Source of the DNA: an uncultured Neomegalonema sp.
GTDB lineage: Bacteria; Pseudomonadota; Alphaproteobacteria; Rhodobacterales; Rhodobacteraceae
Length of the DNA: 64,000 nt
Direction: 5' to 3'
Assembly: GCA_937911325.1 (NCBI GenBank)
Contig: CALDSD010000093.1
Coordinates: 1-64,000, forward strand
Below are positions 8,220 through 11,905 of the stretch, piece by piece. Position 1 is the first letter of the stretch. Each line of letters begins with the position of its first letter. The position numbers and the translations under genes were made by a program. Under the pieces are notes generated by a model. That model was not told where the DNA came from. It made no database searches and saw only the letters and a program-made list of their open reading frames with translations.

Positions 8220-8227
8220 CACTTTTT
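8220..8227. repeat. target-site duplication (left copy)
   Basis: CACTTTTT directly abutting the left IR; identical to 11113..11120. Confidence 0.8.
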
Positions 8228-8250
8228 GGCGATTATATACCTTGCAAACC
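8228..8250. repeat. IS left terminal inverted repeat
   Basis: GGCGATTATATACCTTGCAAACC; its exact reverse complement is at 11090..11112. Confidence 0.85.
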
Positions 8251-8301
8251 CGCTAATGTGATGCCATATCTAGCTTACTGAGAGCACTGGGGTTTTCTGA
8301 A

Positions 8302-9225
8302 ATGTCCATTCTTTCAAAAGCTTACTTCCACGACGAGGCTGCGGCCTTCGAGTACCTGGAGAACATCCTATGGCCGGACGGCCCGGTTTGCCCCCATTGC
8401 GGCGGGTACGAGCGCATTTCCAAGATCAAGGCGAACCCGGAGAAGCGGGTCCGTCAGGGCCTGCACAAGTGCGGTCAGTGCAAAAAGCAGTTCACGGTGC
8501 GTGTCGGCACTGTCTTTGAGGCGTCCAAGGTCGAGCTGCACAAGTGGCTGCAGGCGGTGTACCTGATGTGCGCCAGCAAGAAGGGCATCAGCGCGCACCA
8601 GCTTCACCGCGTTCTGGAGGTCACCTACAAGACCGCATGGTTCATGGCACACCGTATCCGGGAGGCGATGCGTTCGGGAGACCTTGGCCCTTTCGGCCCG
8701 ATGGGCGGTCAGGTCGAGGTGGATGAAACGTTCATCGGCCACGACAAGACCCGCCCGGTTGAGCGCGGCTACCAGCATAAGCACAAGGTTCTAGCGCTTG
8801 TGGACCGCCGCACGGGCAAAGCGAAAACGATGGTCGTTGATCGCCTCGCTAGCCGTGAGTTACTGCCGATCTTGAAAGAGAACATCTCTGAGGAAGCACG
8901 CGTCTACACCGATGAGGCTGGCTGTTACCGCCGCTTGCGCGACCACTTCCTGCAGCTCCAGTCGGTGAAGCATAATGATGGCGAGTACGGTCGTGGCGAG
9001 GTCCACACAATCACCGTCGAGGGCTACTTCTCGATCTTCAAGCGCGGCATGAAGGGTGTCTATCAGCACTGCGCCAAGAAGCACCTGCATCGGTACGTCG
9101 CTGAGTTTGAGTTTCGCTACAATAATCGGGTGGCCAACGGTGTAGGCGACGCCACAAGAACACGAGTTGCATTGGCGGCCGCAGTTGGGAAGCGACTGAC
9201 CTATCGGCGGGCTAACGTCGAATAG
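8302..9225 (+). CDS. IS1595 family transposase (N-terminal zinc ribbon + DDE_Tnp_IS1595/ISXO2-like domain)
   Basis: CPHCG...CGQC zinc ribbon, then VYTDEAGCYRRL...KHLHRYVAEFEFRYNNR, which is typical of IS1595/ISXO2-like transposases. Confidence 0.9.
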   Translation: MSILSKAYFHDEAAAFEYLENILWPDGPVCPHCGGYERISKIKANPEKRVRQGLHKCGQCKKQFTVRVGTVFEASKVELHKWLQAVYLMCASKKGISAHQLHRVLEVTYKTAWFMAHRIREAMRSGDLGPFGPMGGQVEVDETFIGHDKTRPVERGYQHKHKVLALVDRRTGKAKTMVVDRLASRELLPILKENISEEARVYTDEAGCYRRLRDHFLQLQSVKHNDGEYGRGEVHTITVEGYFSIFKRGMKGVYQHCAKKHLHRYVAEFEFRYNNRVANGVGDATRTRVALAAAVGKRLTYRRANVE

Positions 9226-9427
9226 TTGAGTCGGATCAAAGGGATAGCAAAAATATCCACATCTTGTTGGAATCGTTGAACGATTTACCCACATGTAGTA
9301 TGTTCCAATTGGTGGGCCGCCGGGTCGCTCGGGTCGGCAGCGAAAGTGACTGAGGGCGTCCATAGGGACGGTTGGCGCTCTAGGAAGCTGGCCTAGAAGC
9401 CCTTGGATTAGACGAGTCCGGGGCCCA

Positions 9428-10282
9428 CTATTGCCTGGGGTATCCGTAGTATCGGAAGACCTCGGATTGCTCGGGCAGTAGCTTGGCCCCTTTCAGCGAG
9501 GGTAGCAGCTTCACACCGTAGCCGGCAGCGGTGTTTGCAGGGTCGTCTCGATACTTTGCCATTCGTGGGCGCAAGAGCTTCGCGAAGCGCGGATCACAAG
9601 CGCCGGTGTTGTGCACGTCGGATCCTTTAAAAAACGAACTTGCAACGACATCCGCGAGTTGCAGACCAGCGCGTTCGTAATGTGGAAAAACCTTAAGTAG
9701 ATCGTAGTCAATGACCTCCCAGTGTATTTTGCCAAACTTCAGAAAGGTATTTTCGCCCTGATAGCTGATCCAGCGATAGTATGCATTCATCTGTGGGTAA
9801 GAAAGTCCGCCGCGGTTACTGTACTCAATGCGAACCTTTTTCGGCGTTCCGAACTCTTTTTTCGAATGCCAATAGACAAAGTCCGTGACCCGTTCCAAAA
9901 GTACCCTTGTCATCCAGCAATAAAACCAATTTCGAGATGGGATATTTTCGGCGAGAGGATTTCGGTAGCCGCGCATATTCTTCTTATTCGAGCAGACTAC
10001 AAAATATCTTGCGCTAAGCTCTGCTAGGCGCTCACATACAAATACTTTCTTGTTTTCCGAGAGGTTTGAAAAATGCAGGGTGCGTGCTTGGTGTCGCCAA
10101 AGCCCGTCTTTAATGCTTTGAACCCAGTGCTTGACCTCGTCTTCGCGCGAAGCCTTCACGACTACGCCTGAGATCATGAGCCACTCGCTCGAACCATTCT
10201 CGTCGATCGGCCGAATGCGCTTAAGGCCGTCGTCGCCAGCCTCATCGATGTACGCTATATAGTGATAGGGCTTTCCATTCAT
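9428..10282 (-). CDS. DUF3800-like protein (IS passenger)
   Basis: 284 aa. The N-terminal YIAYIDEAGDDG resembles the conserved YIDESG motif of DUF3800. GC content is visibly lower than the surrounding genome. Confidence 0.55.
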   Translation of the reverse strand: MNGKPYHYIAYIDEAGDDGLKRIRPIDENGSSEWLMISGVVVKASREDEVKHWVQSIKDGLWRHQARTLHFSNLSENKKVFVCERLAELSARYFVVCSNKKNMRGYRNPLAENIPSRNWFYCWMTRVLLERVTDFVYWHSKKEFGTPKKVRIEYSNRGGLSYPQMNAYYRWISYQGENTFLKFGKIHWEVIDYDLLKVFPHYERAGLQLADVVASSFFKGSDVHNTGACDPRFAKLLRPRMAKYRDDPANTAAGYGVKLLPSLKGAKLLPEQSEVFRYYGYPRQ

Positions 10283-10293
10283 GGCAGGATTTG

Positions 10294-10467
10294 ATGTCTG
10301 CGGATAAATTGAAAAAGAGTCAACGGGATCGCTTCAAAGAAGCCGCCCACGAGCTGGAGGCCAGTCAAGACGAGGAGCGTTTTAAGGACGCGCTGAGGCA
10401 GATCGGCCAAGCCAAACCACCCGACAAGGACAAAACCAAGGACGACGACCAGAAGCCCGGCCAATGA
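10294..10467 (+). CDS. small highly charged hypothetical protein (57 aa, IS passenger)
   Basis: ATG at 10294 with AGGA 5 nt upstream. Translates MSADKLKKSQRDRFKEAAHELEASQDEERFKDALRQIGQAKPPDKDKTKDDDQKPGQ. It is below the 60-aa cutoff of the ORF track and is preferred over the hydrophobic antisense ORF 10279..10464. Confidence 0.35.
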   Translation: MSADKLKKSQRDRFKEAAHELEASQDEERFKDALRQIGQAKPPDKDKTKDDDQKPGQ

Positions 10468-10495
10468 GCCGGGCTTCGCATTTATGGAGGACCGA

Positions 10496-10681
10496 ATGAC
10501 GGAATGGACCTACCGCGCGCAGGCATGGGTCTGGCGCGCCGTCGCGCAACTAGTGCCGACGTGTTTTTTGCAGTGGGAGCTTCAGCGACGCCCTGGTGTT
10601 GAGGCGATCCGGCGCGGGATCGGCGAGAGAGCCGAGGTCGCGGCAGACGGCCCCTGCACCGTGACGATCAACCGAGACTAG
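10496..10681 (+). CDS. hypothetical protein (61 aa, IS passenger)
   Basis: ATG preceded by GGAGGA (4-nt spacer); Trp-rich. Its stop overlaps the convergent KTSC gene. Confidence 0.3.
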   Translation: MTEWTYRAQAWVWRAVAQLVPTCFLQWELQRRPGVEAIRRGIGERAEVAADGPCTVTINRD

Positions 10682-10860
10682 TAGCGGTCTCGGATATGGT
10701 CGCTGAAGAACGTTCCCTTTGAGGGCGCCCGCAAGAACGCGAGGTAAACGTGCTCCGGCACTCCGTGATAGTCGTACCGTCCGCTCTCATGGAACCAGAT
10801 GGACAGCGTTCCCGCGTCCCATTCGATCCGTCCGATTGCGGAGGAGTTTACAAATGGCAT
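10678..10860 (-). CDS. KTSC domain-containing protein (IS passenger)
   Basis: 60 aa from the ATG at 10860 with an AAGGAGG RBS. IEWDAGTLSIWFHESGRYDYHGVPEHVYLAFLRAPSKGTFFSDHIRDRY matches the KTSC domain. Confidence 0.7.
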   Translation of the reverse strand: MPFVNSSAIGRIEWDAGTLSIWFHESGRYDYHGVPEHVYLAFLRAPSKGTFFSDHIRDRY

Positions 10861-10969
10861 GCTCAAGCCTCCTTTTCCAACATGTTGTGGTTGGGGCTTG
10901 ACGTGAATCGCGCTTTGAATCAGTGTCGTGACGCGGTTCCGCTCCAGCCCCAACCGGCTGGTTCATCTA

Positions 10970-10999
10970 GGTGCTGAGGTGGTTGCACACCTCAGCACC
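10970..10999. other. perfect 12-bp-stem hairpin in subterminal IS region
   Basis: GGTGCTGAGGTG-gttgca-CACCTCAGCACC. No flanking U-tract on either strand. Confidence 0.4.
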
Positions 11000-11089
11000 G
11001 ACATCTTGATAGCACAGAAGAAGAACACGCGGGAGTCCTAGATTCCCGTGTCCACCAGCCTGCAGACTAGATCTGGTACCTCAGGTCTA

Positions 11090-11112
11090 GGTTTGCAAGG
11101 TATATAATCGCC
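11090..11112. repeat. IS right terminal inverted repeat
   Basis: GGTTTGCAAGGTATATAATCGCC, the exact reverse complement of 8228..8250. Confidence 0.85.
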
Positions 11113-11120
11113 CACTTTTT
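11113..11120. repeat. target-site duplication (right copy)
   Basis: CACTTTTT directly abutting the right IR. Confidence 0.8.
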
Positions 11121-11197
11121 TCACCTTGGGGCGAAGCCGACCGATCGTTACGGTCGACACGACACAGCTGACTGACTTTGAGCGACAGGGGGTCTCA

Positions 11198-11905
11198 TTG
11201 GCGCGGATCGTCATATTAACGGGCGCCGGGATTTCGGCGGAGTCGGGACTTGGAACCTTCCGGGATGAAGACGGACTCTGGACCCAATACGACCTTGAAG
11301 ACGTCGCAACGCCCGAGGGGTTCGCCCGCAATCCCGAGCTCGTGCACGACTTCTACAACGCGCGCCGGCGTGGATTGTTGGAGGCACGGCCAAACGCCGC
11401 GCATCACGCGCTGGCGCGTCTTGAGACGGCGCTGCCTGCGCAGGTTCTGATCGTCACTCAGAACATCGACGATCTGCACGAGCAGGCGGGATCAGAAAAC
11501 CTCATCCATATGCATGGCGAGTTGCTGAGAGCCCATTGCACCGAATGCGGGGGCAGCTTTGAGATGCGCGAAGACCTGTCGCCCGAACGCCCATGCCTGC
11601 AATGCCGCGAGATCGGCGGGATGCGGCCATCGGTGGTGTGGTTCGGGGAAATGCCGCTTGAGATGCCGCGGATCTGGAACGAGATCCGAGACGCCGACCT
11701 GTTTGTGTCAATCGGCACCAGCGGAAACGTCTACCCAGCCGCAGCGTTTGTGCAGGACGCCGGTCGCGCAGGAGTAGCGACGCTCGAGCTGAACCTTGAA
11801 AAAACGTCGAACGACTTCGACGAGTCGCGCCAAGGCCAGGCGAGTGTGATCGTCCCGGCCTGGGTCGATGAGGTGTTAAGAGACCTAGAAGGATCCGAGA
11901 TCTAG
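11198..11905 (+). CDS. cobB: NAD-dependent protein deacylase (Sir2 family)
   Basis: [17 protein letters not shown] and a Cys-rich zinc site. Start proposed at the TTG at 11198 ([11 protein letters not shown]), preceded by AGGGGG with a 6-nt spacer. The annotated upstream TTG at 11126 lies only 6 bp from the IS target duplication. Confidence 0.85.

What the first reader, a model, noticed from the sequence alone, without database searches (positions are those of the whole stretch)
9428..10860. IS cargo module: lower-GC DUF3800-like gene, divergent 57-aa hyper-charged ORF, Trp-rich 61-aa ORF and KTSC-domain gene
The 284-aa minus-strand gene has a YIDE[AS]G-type N-terminus like DUF3800 and is clearly lower in GC than the rest of the element and genome. 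That suggests it was captured from a different source. Its start overlaps a divergent unannotated 57-aa K/D/E-rich ORF (10294..10467, under the ORF-track cutoff). A 61-aa ORF follows, then a convergent 60-aa KTSC-domain gene with a strong RBS. None of these has an assigned function, and together they form a compact module moved as one unit by the IS. A toxin-antitoxin or defence-type role is plausible but is pure inference.
Basis: partly seen in the sequence, partly recalled or inferred. Interest (0 to 1): 0.65.

Follow-up and report, generated by a model that had tools for sequence, protein, structure and literature searches.

The report
Insertion sequence carrying nuclease–RNA cargo
A 2.9-kb jumping gene carries three separate cargo units rather than one four-gene module, and the main unit is an RNase H-like enzyme paired with a previously unnoticed small structured RNA whose shared function is still unknown.

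Summary
Window 8228-11112 is an intact IS1595-family insertion sequence: 46-nt inverted repeats, a perfect 8-bp target duplication (CACTTTTT) and a transposase. Inside it lie a DUF3800 gene, a 57-aa ORF, a 61-aa ORF and a KTSC gene, and all four belong to real conserved families.

The cargo is three separable units:
- **Unit 1:** The RNA runs convergent to DUF3800, and a promoter-like box is conserved upstream of it. It overlaps the 3' end of the ancestral DUF3800 ORF. It is supported by strong covariation in 40 sequences and is a sub-threshold relative of Rfam DUF3800-VII. The pair also occurs alone in chromosomes and in a prophage.
- **Unit 2:** the 57-aa protein. It travels with this IS lineage rather than with DUF3800.
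- **Unit 3:** the 61-aa/KTSC pair, which recurs on another IS1595 element that lacks DUF3800.

Low GC is a trait of the whole DUF3800 family (74 of 75 loci), so it is not evidence of capture. The window's DUF3800 carries a nonsense SNP (W285*) that sister genomes lack.

The function remains inferred. My best guess is a protein–RNA addiction or defence-type pair.

The parts
8220..8227 (.). Left copy of the 8-bp target-site duplication, CACTTTTT
   Evidence: Read. Identical to 11113-11120.
8228..8273 (+). Left terminal inverted repeat (IRL), beginning GGCGATTATATACC...
   Evidence: 46-nt arms, 78% complementary; the first 23 nt are identical at both ends, with 0 matches expected by chance.
8302..9225 (+). 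IS1595-family DDE transposase, 307 aa, with an N-terminal zinc ribbon
   Evidence: PF12762, E 4.6e-33, and PF12760, E 3.9e-13. NF033547, E 2.5e-60.
9228..9304 (+). Candidate promoter region of the small RNA. GANTC sites at 9228-9232 and 9270-9274; -35-like TTGAAC at 9276-9281; 17-nt spacer; -10-like TATGTT at 9299-9304.
   Evidence: The support is comparative. A box matching TTGACA at 5 of 6 or better lies at -44..-32 in 32 of 53 loci, against 2-12 of 53 in control windows. GANTC is about 7-fold enriched. In the window itself the match is only 8 of 12, and the generic scan does not flag it.
9312..9428 (+). 117-nt structured small RNA, antisense to the DUF3800 3' end. Five helices, closed by GUGGGC(9312-9317)/GCCCAC(9423-9428).
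   Evidence: A covariance model finds it at this position in 42 of 80 loci at E<0.01, 36 of them not used to build the model. On an independent MAFFT alignment of 40 sequences, 92.6% of cells pair, 25 of 31 pairs show compensatory changes, and there are 214 double changes against 63+/-7 in shuffles. Helices rich in G.U pairs fix the strand. Weak Rfam DUF3800-VII matches fall at the same coordinates and strand.
9428..10282 (-). DUF3800 gene (RNase HII-like), truncated 284-aa allele. The ancestral 300-aa ORF runs to 9380.
10294..10467 (+). 57-aa charged small protein. Conserved core: Q..+F+EAAREL...D.E.RF...L..I...KP.
   Evidence: The third codon position is the most variable (0.46, 0.40, 0.60). 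The model shows two helices at low confidence.
10452..10477 (+). GC-rich hairpin (10-bp stem) whose loop holds the stop codon of the 57-aa ORF
   Evidence: Read. Only weak, terminator-like Rfam noise matches here.
10496..10681 (+). 61-aa small protein. Invariant motifs PTCFLQWEL..R.G and C-terminal GPC.VT(V/I)NRD.
   Evidence: There is a GGAGGA ribosome-binding site at 10487-10492.
10678..10860 (-). 60-aa KTSC-domain protein, convergent with the 61-aa gene. Their stop codons overlap by 4 nt.
   Evidence: The same convergent pair with the same 4-nt overlap occurs in L102.
11067..11112 (-). Right terminal inverted repeat (IRR)
11113..11120 (.). Right copy of the 8-bp target-site duplication, CACTTTTT
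   Evidence: Read.

Best explanation
Window 8228-11112 is a 2,885-bp passenger-carrying insertion sequence of the IS1595 family. Its ends look like the ISNwi1 type. Its DDE transposase moves the whole element and makes 8-bp target duplications. It sits between a 123-aa ORF downstream of lepA and a Sir2 gene.

**The cargo is three separable units.**

1. **DUF3800 plus a small RNA.** This is a self-contained protein–RNA pair. DUF3800 is an RNase HII-like enzyme whose DE and QxxD motifs are intact. The 117-nt multi-helix RNA is transcribed convergently from its own sigma-70-type promoter. Its 3' part is complementary to the last 49 nt of the ancestral DUF3800 ORF.
2. **A 57-aa two-helix charged protein.** It belongs to this IS lineage and sits next to the right end. 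It is probably an IS accessory or regulatory protein.
3. **A 61-aa/KTSC gene pair** of unknown role, in a variable cargo slot between the 57-aa gene and the right end.

**What is shown:** the anatomy, the recurrence of each unit, the RNA structure and strand, and the protein fold.

**What is inferred:** the DUF3800–RNA pair is an addiction-type (toxin-antitoxin-like) or defence-type module in which the enzyme binds or cleaves its cognate RNA. The RNA may also dampen DUF3800 expression by antisense pairing. Such a pair would favour retention of whatever DNA carries it, which would explain why it recurs on IS copies and in a prophage. Which partner is the harmful one is not resolved.

In this genome the module may be decaying. 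DUF3800 carries W285*, and an RNA SNP at 9337 breaks a U-A pair.
For: **IS anatomy**
- establish the repeats, duplication and transposase.
- Eleven related copies have the layout IR-[variable slot]-57aa-DUF3800-RNA-Tnp-IR with perfect 8-bp duplications.
- The same IS occurs at two different sites.

**DUF3800 fold**
- The AlphaFold2 model has pLDDT 88.7.
- D13, E14 and D211 are invariant in 33 homologues.

**The RNA**
- Searches give 92.6% pairing, 25 of 31 pairs with compensatory changes, and slid controls of 65 or fewer double changes against 214 observed.
- Strand: the U.G and G.U pairs that dominate helices 3 and 5 would be A.C mismatches on the other strand.
- A -35-like box is conserved upstream.
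- Rfam DUF3800-VII matches at the same coordinates and strand: 14.9 bits in the window and 21.4 bits, E 0.041, in L072.

**Independence of the units:**

**Literature**
- DUF3800 genes are accompanied by 11 different structured RNA motifs on either side and strand (PMC5737381).
- DUF3800 serves as the effector partner in type VII retrons (PMC7736814).
- It is an accessory of Cas12a2/a3 and Cas13 systems.
- A strain-specific DUF3800 gene behaved as essential in a Legionella Tn-seq study and was listed beside antitoxin genes.

**Decay:**
Against: - There is no experimental data for this clade.
- PADLOC has no model that hits any of the four proteins.
- The RNA's promoter in the window matches only 8 of 12 consensus positions and was not flagged by the generic scan.
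- No terminator for the RNA was found, so its 3' end is unknown.
- Folding the window sequence alone gives weak z-scores (-1.5 and -2.4), so the structure rests on comparison with other loci.
- DUF3800 is a 300-aa enzyme, unlike typical type I toxins, and the RNA has no tandem repeats like type III antitoxins.
- The Legionella result comes from a distant homologue. It points to the protein as the protective partner, so the polarity is open.
- The truncated allele persists in three assemblies. Full-length DUF3800 is therefore not needed for viability here.
Confidence: 0.5

Rival explanations
1. The four genes form one functional toxin-antitoxin or defence module that the IS captured as a block from a lower-GC donor.
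For: All four genes lie together inside the inverted repeats. GC dips over DUF3800. The same four-gene IS is fixed at this site in six assemblies.
Against: - The components occur independently of one another.
- Low GC is family-wide (74 of 75 loci).
- KTSC appears in 1 of 80 DUF3800 loci and the 61-aa ORF in none.
- Other IS copies carry different genes in the same slot.
Confidence: 0.07
2. The small RNA is only a cis-antisense regulator of DUF3800 expression, working through transcriptional interference or RNase III cleavage of the 49-nt duplex. DUF3800 would then have an unrelated enzymatic job, such as removing RNA:DNA hybrids, with no RNA-protein complex.
For: The arrangement is convergent and overlapping, with the RNA having its own promoter. 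The fold is that of RNase HII.
Against: - The RNA has five covarying helices and conserved unpaired stretches (GAUUAGACG, CUA). That is more than antisense pairing needs.
- In other phyla DUF3800 genes associate with unrelated structured RNAs on either side and strand. That argues for a partnership in trans.
Confidence: 0.2
3. DUF3800 plus the RNA serves the transposon itself, as TnpB with its omega RNA serves IS200/IS605 elements. It would be an RNA-dependent nuclease that promotes retention, homing or processing of transposition intermediates of IS1595 elements.
For: - The pair is recurrently carried by IS1595 copies (27 of 80 loci).
- The protein has an RNase H-like fold.
- The RNA overlaps the 3' end of the protein gene.
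- Solo copies exist, as they do for TnpB.
Against: - The RNA has no hypervariable guide-like segment.
- It lies in the middle of the IS, not at an end.
- Most DUF3800 loci (53 of 80) have no transposase or inverted repeats nearby.
- Related IS1595 copies carry other passengers or none in that place.
- The fold is RNase HII-like, not RuvC-like.
Confidence: 0.1
4. The conserved element works at the DNA level, for example as a recombination site or cassette boundary like an integron attC site, or as a hairpin used in mobilisation. It would not be a transcript.
For: It sits at the edge of the unit that appears to have been exchanged between lineages. It has a long closing inverted repeat.
Against: - The pairing is strand-specific. 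Several pairs are mostly U.G or G.U, which would be A.C mismatches on the other strand and mismatches in a DNA cruciform.
- There is a conserved promoter-like box at a fixed distance.
- The element resembles an Rfam small-RNA family.
Confidence: 0.03
5. The cargo is functionally inert here: hitch-hiking DNA that is decaying, with no present role.
For: The window allele has a nonsense SNP in DUF3800 and a helix-breaking SNP in the RNA.
Against: - Sister assemblies keep an intact 300-aa gene and the U-A pair.
- All four proteins and the RNA are conserved across many genomes, with compensatory or synonymous-type variation.
- The catalytic motifs are intact.
Confidence: 0.1

Closest known systems
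IS1595 family insertion sequences, ISNwi1 group, in the passenger-carrying ('transporter IS') form
   Same: DDE_Tnp_IS1595 catalytic domain with an N-terminal zinc ribbon, 8-bp target duplication, and inverted repeats starting with GG (family description in PMC8101967). The terminal GGCGATTAT fits the ISNwi1-group end consensus ggnnatTAT, and that group is described as having longer members with passenger genes. Both points are from my memory of ISfinder and Siguier et al. 2009 and were not checked here.
   Different: The specific cargo was not found described in the searchable literature. That cargo is DUF3800 with its small RNA, the 57-aa backbone protein, and the variable slot next to the right end. 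The group assignment could not be tested because ISfinder is not available.
DUF3800-associated RNA motifs (Weinberg et al. 2017), especially Rfam RF02967 DUF3800-VII
   Same: A structured small RNA lies next to a DUF3800 gene. The outer three-part stem matches (GcGGG..GCGCCGG..cucg / cgag.CCGGGG.CCcgC), as does an internal hairpin followed by CAG. Matches fall at the same coordinates and strand in the window (14.9 bits) and in L072 (21.4 bits, E 0.041).
   Different: - Scores are far below the gathering threshold of 36.2, and no hit was found at curated thresholds in 11 loci.
- The interior is about 40 nt larger, with extra helices.
- There is no 3' U-tract.
- Here the RNA overlaps the DUF3800 coding end in antisense, and GANTC sites sit at its promoter.
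RNase HII / HIII / eukaryotic RNase H2A
   Different: Sequence identity is 9-13%. A profile of the family found nothing among PDB sequences. DUF3800 has extra C-terminal helices and a conserved QWW.P tail. The acidic tetrad is reported as rearranged (PMC10910872, PMC7736814). The substrate is unknown.
Type VII retrons and the CRISPR accessory DUF3800 proteins (TPR-DUF3800 with Cas12a2/a3; Csx32 with Cas13)
   Same: The same Pfam family is linked to mobile elements and defence systems that revolve around a non-coding nucleic acid.
   Different: There is no reverse transcriptase, cas gene, CRISPR array or TPR domain nearby. This is a stand-alone protein of about 300 aa with its own small RNA.
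TnpB/IscB with omega RNA in IS200/IS605 elements (analogy only)
   Same: An accessory protein with an RNase H-like fold is carried by an IS together with a structured RNA that overlaps the 3' end of its gene. Solo copies exist.
   Different: The fold subclass differs (RNase HII-like, not RuvC). The RNA is antisense and internal and has no guide segment.
Type I toxin-antitoxin systems with 3'-overlapping antisense RNA, such as txpA/RatA (analogy, from my own knowledge)
   Same: A convergent small RNA is complementary to the 3' end of the protein's mRNA.
   Different: The protein is a 300-aa enzyme rather than a small membrane peptide, and the RNA is far more structured than antisense pairing requires.

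Membership tests
IS1595 family (insertion sequences) | Transposase with a DDE_Tnp_IS1595 catalytic domain | tested here: met
   PF12762, E 4.6e-33. NF033547, E 2.5e-60, 204 bits against a cut-off of 75.
IS1595 family (insertion sequences) | N-terminal zinc-ribbon domain (present in all groups except IS1016) | tested here: met
   PF12760, E 3.9e-13.
IS1595 family (insertion sequences) | Terminal inverted repeats and an 8-bp target-site duplication | tested here: met
   46-nt inverted repeats, with the terminal 23 nt identical. CACTTTTT on both sides.
ISNwi1 group of IS1595 | End consensus ggnnatTAT and transposase clustering with ISNwi1 | not testable with these tools
   The ends read GGCGATTAT, which fits the consensus as I recall it from ISfinder. 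No ISfinder reference sequences were available. One related copy is in Nitrobacter sp. Nb-311A (L014).
Pfam DUF3800 (PF12686) | Score above the gathering threshold | tested here: met
   38.5 bits against 21.
Pfam DUF3800 (PF12686) | N-terminal DE motif and C-terminal QxxD motif (as described in PMC7736814) | tested here: met
   D13 and E14 in YIDEAGDDG. Q208-L-A-D211 in GLQLAD. D13, E14 and D211 are invariant in 33 homologues.
Pfam DUF3800 (PF12686) | RNase H-like fold | tested here: met
Rfam RF02967 DUF3800-VII RNA | Covariance-model score at or above the gathering score (36.2 bits) | tested here: not met
   14.9 bits, E about 2-3, in the window. 21.4 bits, E 0.041, in L072. Nothing at gathering level in 11 loci.
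Rfam RF02967 DUF3800-VII RNA | Located next to a DUF3800 gene, with the same outer-stem architecture | tested here: met
   The element is always at the DUF3800 3' end. Full-length model alignments share the three-part closing stem, and in L072 the internal hairpin as well.
Pfam KTSC (PF13619) | Score above the gathering threshold, with a central YxY motif | tested here: met
   67.2 bits against 25, covering the whole 58-position model. The sequence contains GRYDYHG. That YxY is the family motif is from my memory of the Pfam description.
Type I toxin-antitoxin system | Small hydrophobic toxin peptide repressed by an antisense RNA | tested here: not met
   The antisense overlap is present (49 nt against the ancestral ORF), but the protein is a 300-aa soluble enzyme-like fold.
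Type III toxin-antitoxin system (ToxIN-like) | Antitoxin made of tandem RNA repeats processed by the toxin endoribonuclease | tested here: not met
   No direct-repeat family lies in or near 9230-9430. The RNA is a single-copy multi-helix structure. Processing was not tested.
Known anti-phage defence systems (PADLOC-DB v2) | Any component matching a PADLOC model | tested here: not met
   No hits at E<=0.1 for the four cargo proteins or the transposase.
TnpB/IscB omega-RNA systems | RuvC-type nuclease with a guide-bearing RNA at the transposon end | tested here: not met

The most novel reading that the evidence does not exclude
The DUF3800 enzyme and its convergent structured RNA would form a new class of two-component protein–RNA system. 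One possibility is an RNA-toxin/protein-antitoxin addiction pair. Another is an RNA-dependent RNase H-like effector whose expression is wired to CcrM (GANTC) methylation state. IS1595 elements in Alphaproteobacteria would have repeatedly adopted it to secure their own maintenance, much as IS200/IS605 elements adopted TnpB with its omega RNA. If true, this would give a function to the whole set of 11 or more orphan DUF3800 RNA motifs.
Probability: 0.12. Interest if true: 0.85.

Novelty: new variant of a known kind. Interest (0 to 1): 0.5.

Why it matters
DUF3800 proteins and their many unrelated companion RNAs have been an open puzzle since 2017. The same protein family also appears beside retrons, Cas12a2/a3 and Cas13, still without an assigned role.

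This locus adds a compact unit of about 1.1 kb that is well suited to experiments:
- The RNA's strand, start and structure are defined by comparison across 40 sequences.
- The RNA overlaps its partner gene in antisense.
- The unit exists in three natural states: solo, prophage-borne and IS-borne.
- Natural variants are available, with intact and nonsense DUF3800 alleles and paired and mispaired RNA alleles.

The result also shows that one IS1595 lineage behaves as a small cargo platform. It has a conserved 57-aa backbone gene and two cargo slots.

Tried and rejected
- **PADLOC, NCBIfam and PHROGs scans of the cargo proteins.** No defence-system or named-function hits. The 61-aa ORF gave only sub-threshold matches to the BC1881 family and phrog_5765.
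- **Rfam.** Gathering thresholds on 11 loci and E-value mode on 5 whole loci found no DUF3800 RNA family. The IS copies with shorter DUF3800 genes (L087, L091) have neither an Rfam hit nor a hit to my model.
- **First RNA model, on the DUF3800-sense strand.** The pairs held, but A.C mismatches outnumbered G.U pairs (76 against 48). I therefore re-derived the structure on the opposite strand, where it fits better.
- **An integron attC-like or other DNA-level reading of the element.** Rejected because the pairing is strand-specific and a promoter box is conserved.
- **Guide-RNA reading.** No hypervariable segment was seen among close relatives.
- **PDB search by sequence with the DUF3800 profile.** Nothing at E<=1.
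- **Phage and plasmid collections.** Only 3 and 4 distant DUF3800 hits, at 28-32% identity.
- **Structure of the 57-aa protein.** Confidence was low (pLDDT 66.6, pTM 0.28), so I ran no fold search. A Pfam scan of 20 family members gave only scattered noise.
- **Generic promoter scan.** It did not flag the RNA promoter in the window.
- **Low GC as evidence of capture.** Rejected on the 75-locus comparison.
Full report
**1. Observation**

ORF listing and Pfam give these genes:
- An IS1595 transposase at 8302-9225(+): PF12762, E 4.6e-33; PF12760, E 3.9e-13; NCBIfam NF033547, E 2.5e-60.
- A DUF3800 gene at 9428-10282(-): PF12686, E 2.3e-9, 38.5 bits against a cut-off of 21.
- A 57-aa ORF at 10294-10467(+).
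- A 61-aa ORF at 10496-10681(+).
- A KTSC gene at 10678-10860(-): PF13619, E 1.1e-18.

The element's limits are clear. The inverted repeats are 8228-8273 and 11067-11112 (46 nt, 78% complementary). Their terminal 23 nt are identical, and the pattern occurs nowhere else in the window. A perfect 8-bp direct repeat, CACTTTTT, flanks them at 8220-8227 and 11113-11120.

The IS is 2,885 bp long. It lies between a 123-aa ORF downstream of lepA and a Sir2 gene. GC content over DUF3800 is 0.504, against 0.591 for the transposase gene and 0.628 for the whole window.

The source is a Neomegalonema-like alphaproteobacterial MAG.

**2. The four genes are not one module**

I fetched 80 genomic loci that encode relatives of the DUF3800 protein and compared them.

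*IS copies.* In 27 loci an IS1595 transposase lies convergent with DUF3800, as in the window. Eleven of these copies have both inverted repeats and perfect 8-bp duplications. They range from 2,294 to 4,133 bp. The order is always IR, variable slot, 57-aa gene, DUF3800, transposase, IR. One such IS occurs at two different chromosomal sites in related metagenomes.

*The 57-aa ORF.* It is a real gene.
- Twenty-four orthologues align, with a conserved core (Q..+F+EAAREL...D.E.RF...L..I...KP) and variable tails.
- The third codon position is the most variable.
- A profile search finds 2,803 unnamed proteins of 42-62 aa.
- It follows the IS, not DUF3800. Of the 25 loci that have it, 21 also have the transposase.
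- In Rhizobium laguerreae it sits in an IS1595 element whose passenger is a SocA_Panacea protein instead of DUF3800.
- Its model is two short helices at low confidence.

*The 61-aa ORF.* It is also a real family. An exhaustive search finds 20 representatives, mostly about 61 aa long. The motifs PTCFLQWEL..R.G and GPC.VT(V/I)NRD are invariant or nearly so.

*The 61-aa/KTSC pair.* Together with the 57-aa gene, the pair recurs on another IS1595 element (L102). There it has the same convergent 4-nt stop-codon overlap, and the element has no DUF3800. Among the 80 DUF3800 loci, KTSC was found once and the 61-aa ORF never. Other IS copies hold different small genes in that slot.

*Solo DUF3800.* The closest DUF3800 relatives (66-75% identity) have no transposase or inverted repeats nearby. 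They sit as single genes in three kinds of place:
- between uvrB and a PLDc_N gene;
- between an alcohol dehydrogenase gene and rho;
- in a prophage, between the terminase genes and a ParB-methyltransferase gene.

**3. Low GC is not evidence of capture**

The DUF3800 gene is lower in GC than its flanks in 74 of 75 loci. The mean difference is -0.11 for IS-borne genes and -0.14 for solo genes. In Jannaschia it is 0.517 against 0.761. Low GC is therefore a family trait.

An exchange of the DUF3800 unit is still likely, for a different reason.
- The window's transposase, ends and 57-aa gene resemble L064, L066 and L056 (transposase 61-67% identical).
- The DUF3800 proteins of those three loci are only 42-45% identical to the window's.
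- The window's DUF3800 and its downstream DNA match the solo clade.

**4.

*How it was found.* In the solo relatives, nucleotide conservation continues about 70-115 nt past the DUF3800 stop codon. A covariance model built from 7 sequences finds the element at the same place in 42 of 80 loci at E<0.01. Thirty-six of those were not used to build the model. Ten more loci match at the same position at weaker E-values, and 19 of the transposase-linked loci are among the matches.

*Which strand.* On the DUF3800-sense strand, A.C mismatches outnumber G.U pairs 76 to 48. I therefore realigned 40 sequences on the opposite strand with MAFFT alone. RNAalifold then predicts 31 pairs in five helices, with a covariation term of -6.27. 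The pair counts on that alignment are:
- 92.6% of cells form a standard pair;
- 25 of 31 pairs show compensatory changes;
- there are 214 double changes, against 63+/-7 in shuffles and 65 or fewer in the slid controls.

Several pairs in helices 3 and 5 are mostly U.G or G.U (for example UG in 28, 21 and 30 sequences and GU in 22). On the other strand these would be A.C mismatches. The functional strand is therefore the window + strand, at 9312-9428 (117 nt).

*Promoter.* A TTGACA-like box lies about 35 nt upstream of the first helix. It matches at 5 of 6 or better in 32 of 53 loci, against 2-12 of 53 in control windows and 3 of 53 in reverse orientation. An A at -12 occurs in 35 of 53 loci. 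The window has TTGAAC (9276-9281), a 17-nt spacer, TATGTT (9299-9304), and then 7 nt before G9312. That is only 8 of 12 consensus positions, and the generic scan does not flag it. The promoter call therefore rests on comparison between loci.

*3' end.* No terminator was seen, so the RNA's 3' end is unknown.

*Overlap with DUF3800.* The RNA's 3' arm is built from the codons for the near-invariant C-terminal WW.P motif. The RNA overlaps the ancestral ORF by 49 nt.

*Relation to Rfam.* Rfam gives sub-threshold matches to RF02967 (DUF3800-VII) at exactly these coordinates and on this strand. The scores are 14.9 bits in the window and 21.4 bits, E 0.041, in L072, where the internal hairpin also aligns. 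The gathering score is 36.2, and no locus reached it. I read the element as an expanded, divergent relative of DUF3800-VII. By Rfam's criterion it is not a member.

**5. The protein**

D13 and E14 (in YIDEAGDDG) and Q208xxD211 are present. D13, E14 and D211 are invariant among 33 homologues.

The window allele stops at ...YGYPRQ*. All homologues continue with WW.P. The stop is a single SNP, with window 9429 as T where sister assemblies have C, giving TAG instead of TGG on the coding strand.
- Three assemblies carry the stop: the window, GCA_050043125.1 and ERZ23487454.
- Three carry the intact 300-aa gene at the same insertion site: GCA_039026335.1, GCA_039200805.1 and SRR22824308.

A second SNP, 9337 G instead of T, turns a U-A pair of RNA helix 3 into G.A. 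It is found in the window and in one other assembly. These are MAG consensus sequences, and SNPs cluster oddly in the transposase gene. Inferences from single SNPs therefore need caution.

**6. How it most likely works**

*Shown:* the transposon anatomy, the three separable cargo units, the RNA's structure and strand, and the protein fold.

*Inferred:* the DUF3800–RNA pair is a protein–RNA addiction or defence-type module. The reasons are as follows.
- It is a compact unit of about 1.1 kb scattered among unrelated sites, a prophage and IS copies.
- DUF3800 genes across phyla keep company with 11 or more different structured RNAs on either side and strand (PMC5737381). That suggests a partnership in trans rather than simple cis regulation.
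- DUF3800 is the effector partner of type VII retrons and an accessory of Cas12a2/a3 and Cas13 systems.
- In a Legionella Tn-seq study, a strain-specific DUF3800 gene scored as essential and was listed beside antitoxin genes.

Here the RNA could also repress DUF3800 by antisense pairing. Which partner is harmful is open. The Legionella result hints that the protein is the protective one. PADLOC has no matching model, and nothing has been tested experimentally in this clade.

The rival explanations, with their weights, are listed separately.

**7. Comparison with what is known, and novelty**

Passenger-carrying IS1595 elements are known (from my memory of Siguier et al. 2009). The family traits are confirmed in PMC8101967. 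The association between DUF3800 and structured RNAs is also known.

What appears to be new:
- this expanded, antisense-overlapping RNA variant with its own promoter;
- the carriage of the pair on one IS1595 lineage;
- the 57-aa backbone gene and the two-slot cargo layout of that lineage;
- the 61-aa/KTSC pair.

I therefore rate the finding a new variant of a known kind, of moderate interest.

Noticed in passing
window 9228-9232 and 9270-9274; upstream of the RNA in 44 of 53 loci: GANTC, the CcrM methylation motif of Alphaproteobacteria, is about 7-fold enriched at -75..-30 upstream of the small-RNA start (mean 1.32 sites against about 0.18 expected). It often abuts the -35 box as GAATC-TTGAC, with other favoured positions at -53 and about -84 to -88. 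This may tie RNA expression to methylation or replication state.
   Followed up: partly
window 9429 and 9337: Two population SNPs. 9429 T creates the W285* stop in DUF3800, and it is present in 3 of 6 assemblies of this locus. 9337 G breaks a U-A pair in RNA helix 3, and it is present in 2 of those 3. Both partners of the module may be decaying in one sub-lineage.
   Followed up: yes
window 8924-9057, compared with L095-L100: SNPs between assemblies of the same locus cluster inside the transposase gene. One example is GGGC against TTTT at 8993-8997. This could be assembly noise or real diversity among IS copies collapsed in the MAGs.
   Followed up: no
L090 3200-3736: An IS1595 element in Rhizobium laguerreae carries a SocA_Panacea (antitoxin-type domain) gene in the slot where DUF3800 sits elsewhere, followed by the 57-aa gene.
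   Followed up: no
L014 5519-5836; L061 1282-1554 and L043 5229-5798; L018 1241-1846 and L072 5240-5809: The variable slot next to the right end holds other small cargo in other IS copies. By eye these are a 105-aa protein with a Cas2-like N-terminus (YLIAYDL...) in Nitrobacter Nb-311A, a conserved ~90-aa stretch shared by the slot ORFs of L061 and L043, and a 190-200-aa membrane-like protein. None was annotated with a tool.
   Followed up: no
P0244; L045 5690-5917; L062 5736-6008: The 57-aa protein occurs in fused forms. P0244 joins a C-terminal part like the 57-aa protein to the body of the 61-aa family. In L045 and L062 the 57-aa core carries a C-terminal CPECGH...GNGWDGIDAHWR zinc-ribbon-like extension.
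   Followed up: no
window 10889-10955 and 10965-11004: Two inverted repeats (24 nt at 79% and 17 nt at 88% complementarity) lie between the KTSC start and the right inverted repeat. Neither is followed by a T-run, and their role is unknown.
   Followed up: no
window 11113-11198: The IS right end lies only about 85 nt upstream of the called start of the Sir2 (CobB-like) gene. The insertion may therefore affect that gene's promoter.
   Followed up: no
L072 6841-6967: The RNA also gives a weak match to the Y RNA-like family YrlA (17.5 bits, E 0.21). This probably reflects only the long closing stem.
   Followed up: no
L087 3199-3999; L091 3283-4002: Some IS1595 copies carry shorter DUF3800 genes (239-266 aa), with a 137-165-nt gap to the transposase gene. 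That gap matches neither my RNA model nor any Rfam family, so a different companion RNA may be hiding there.
   Followed up: partly
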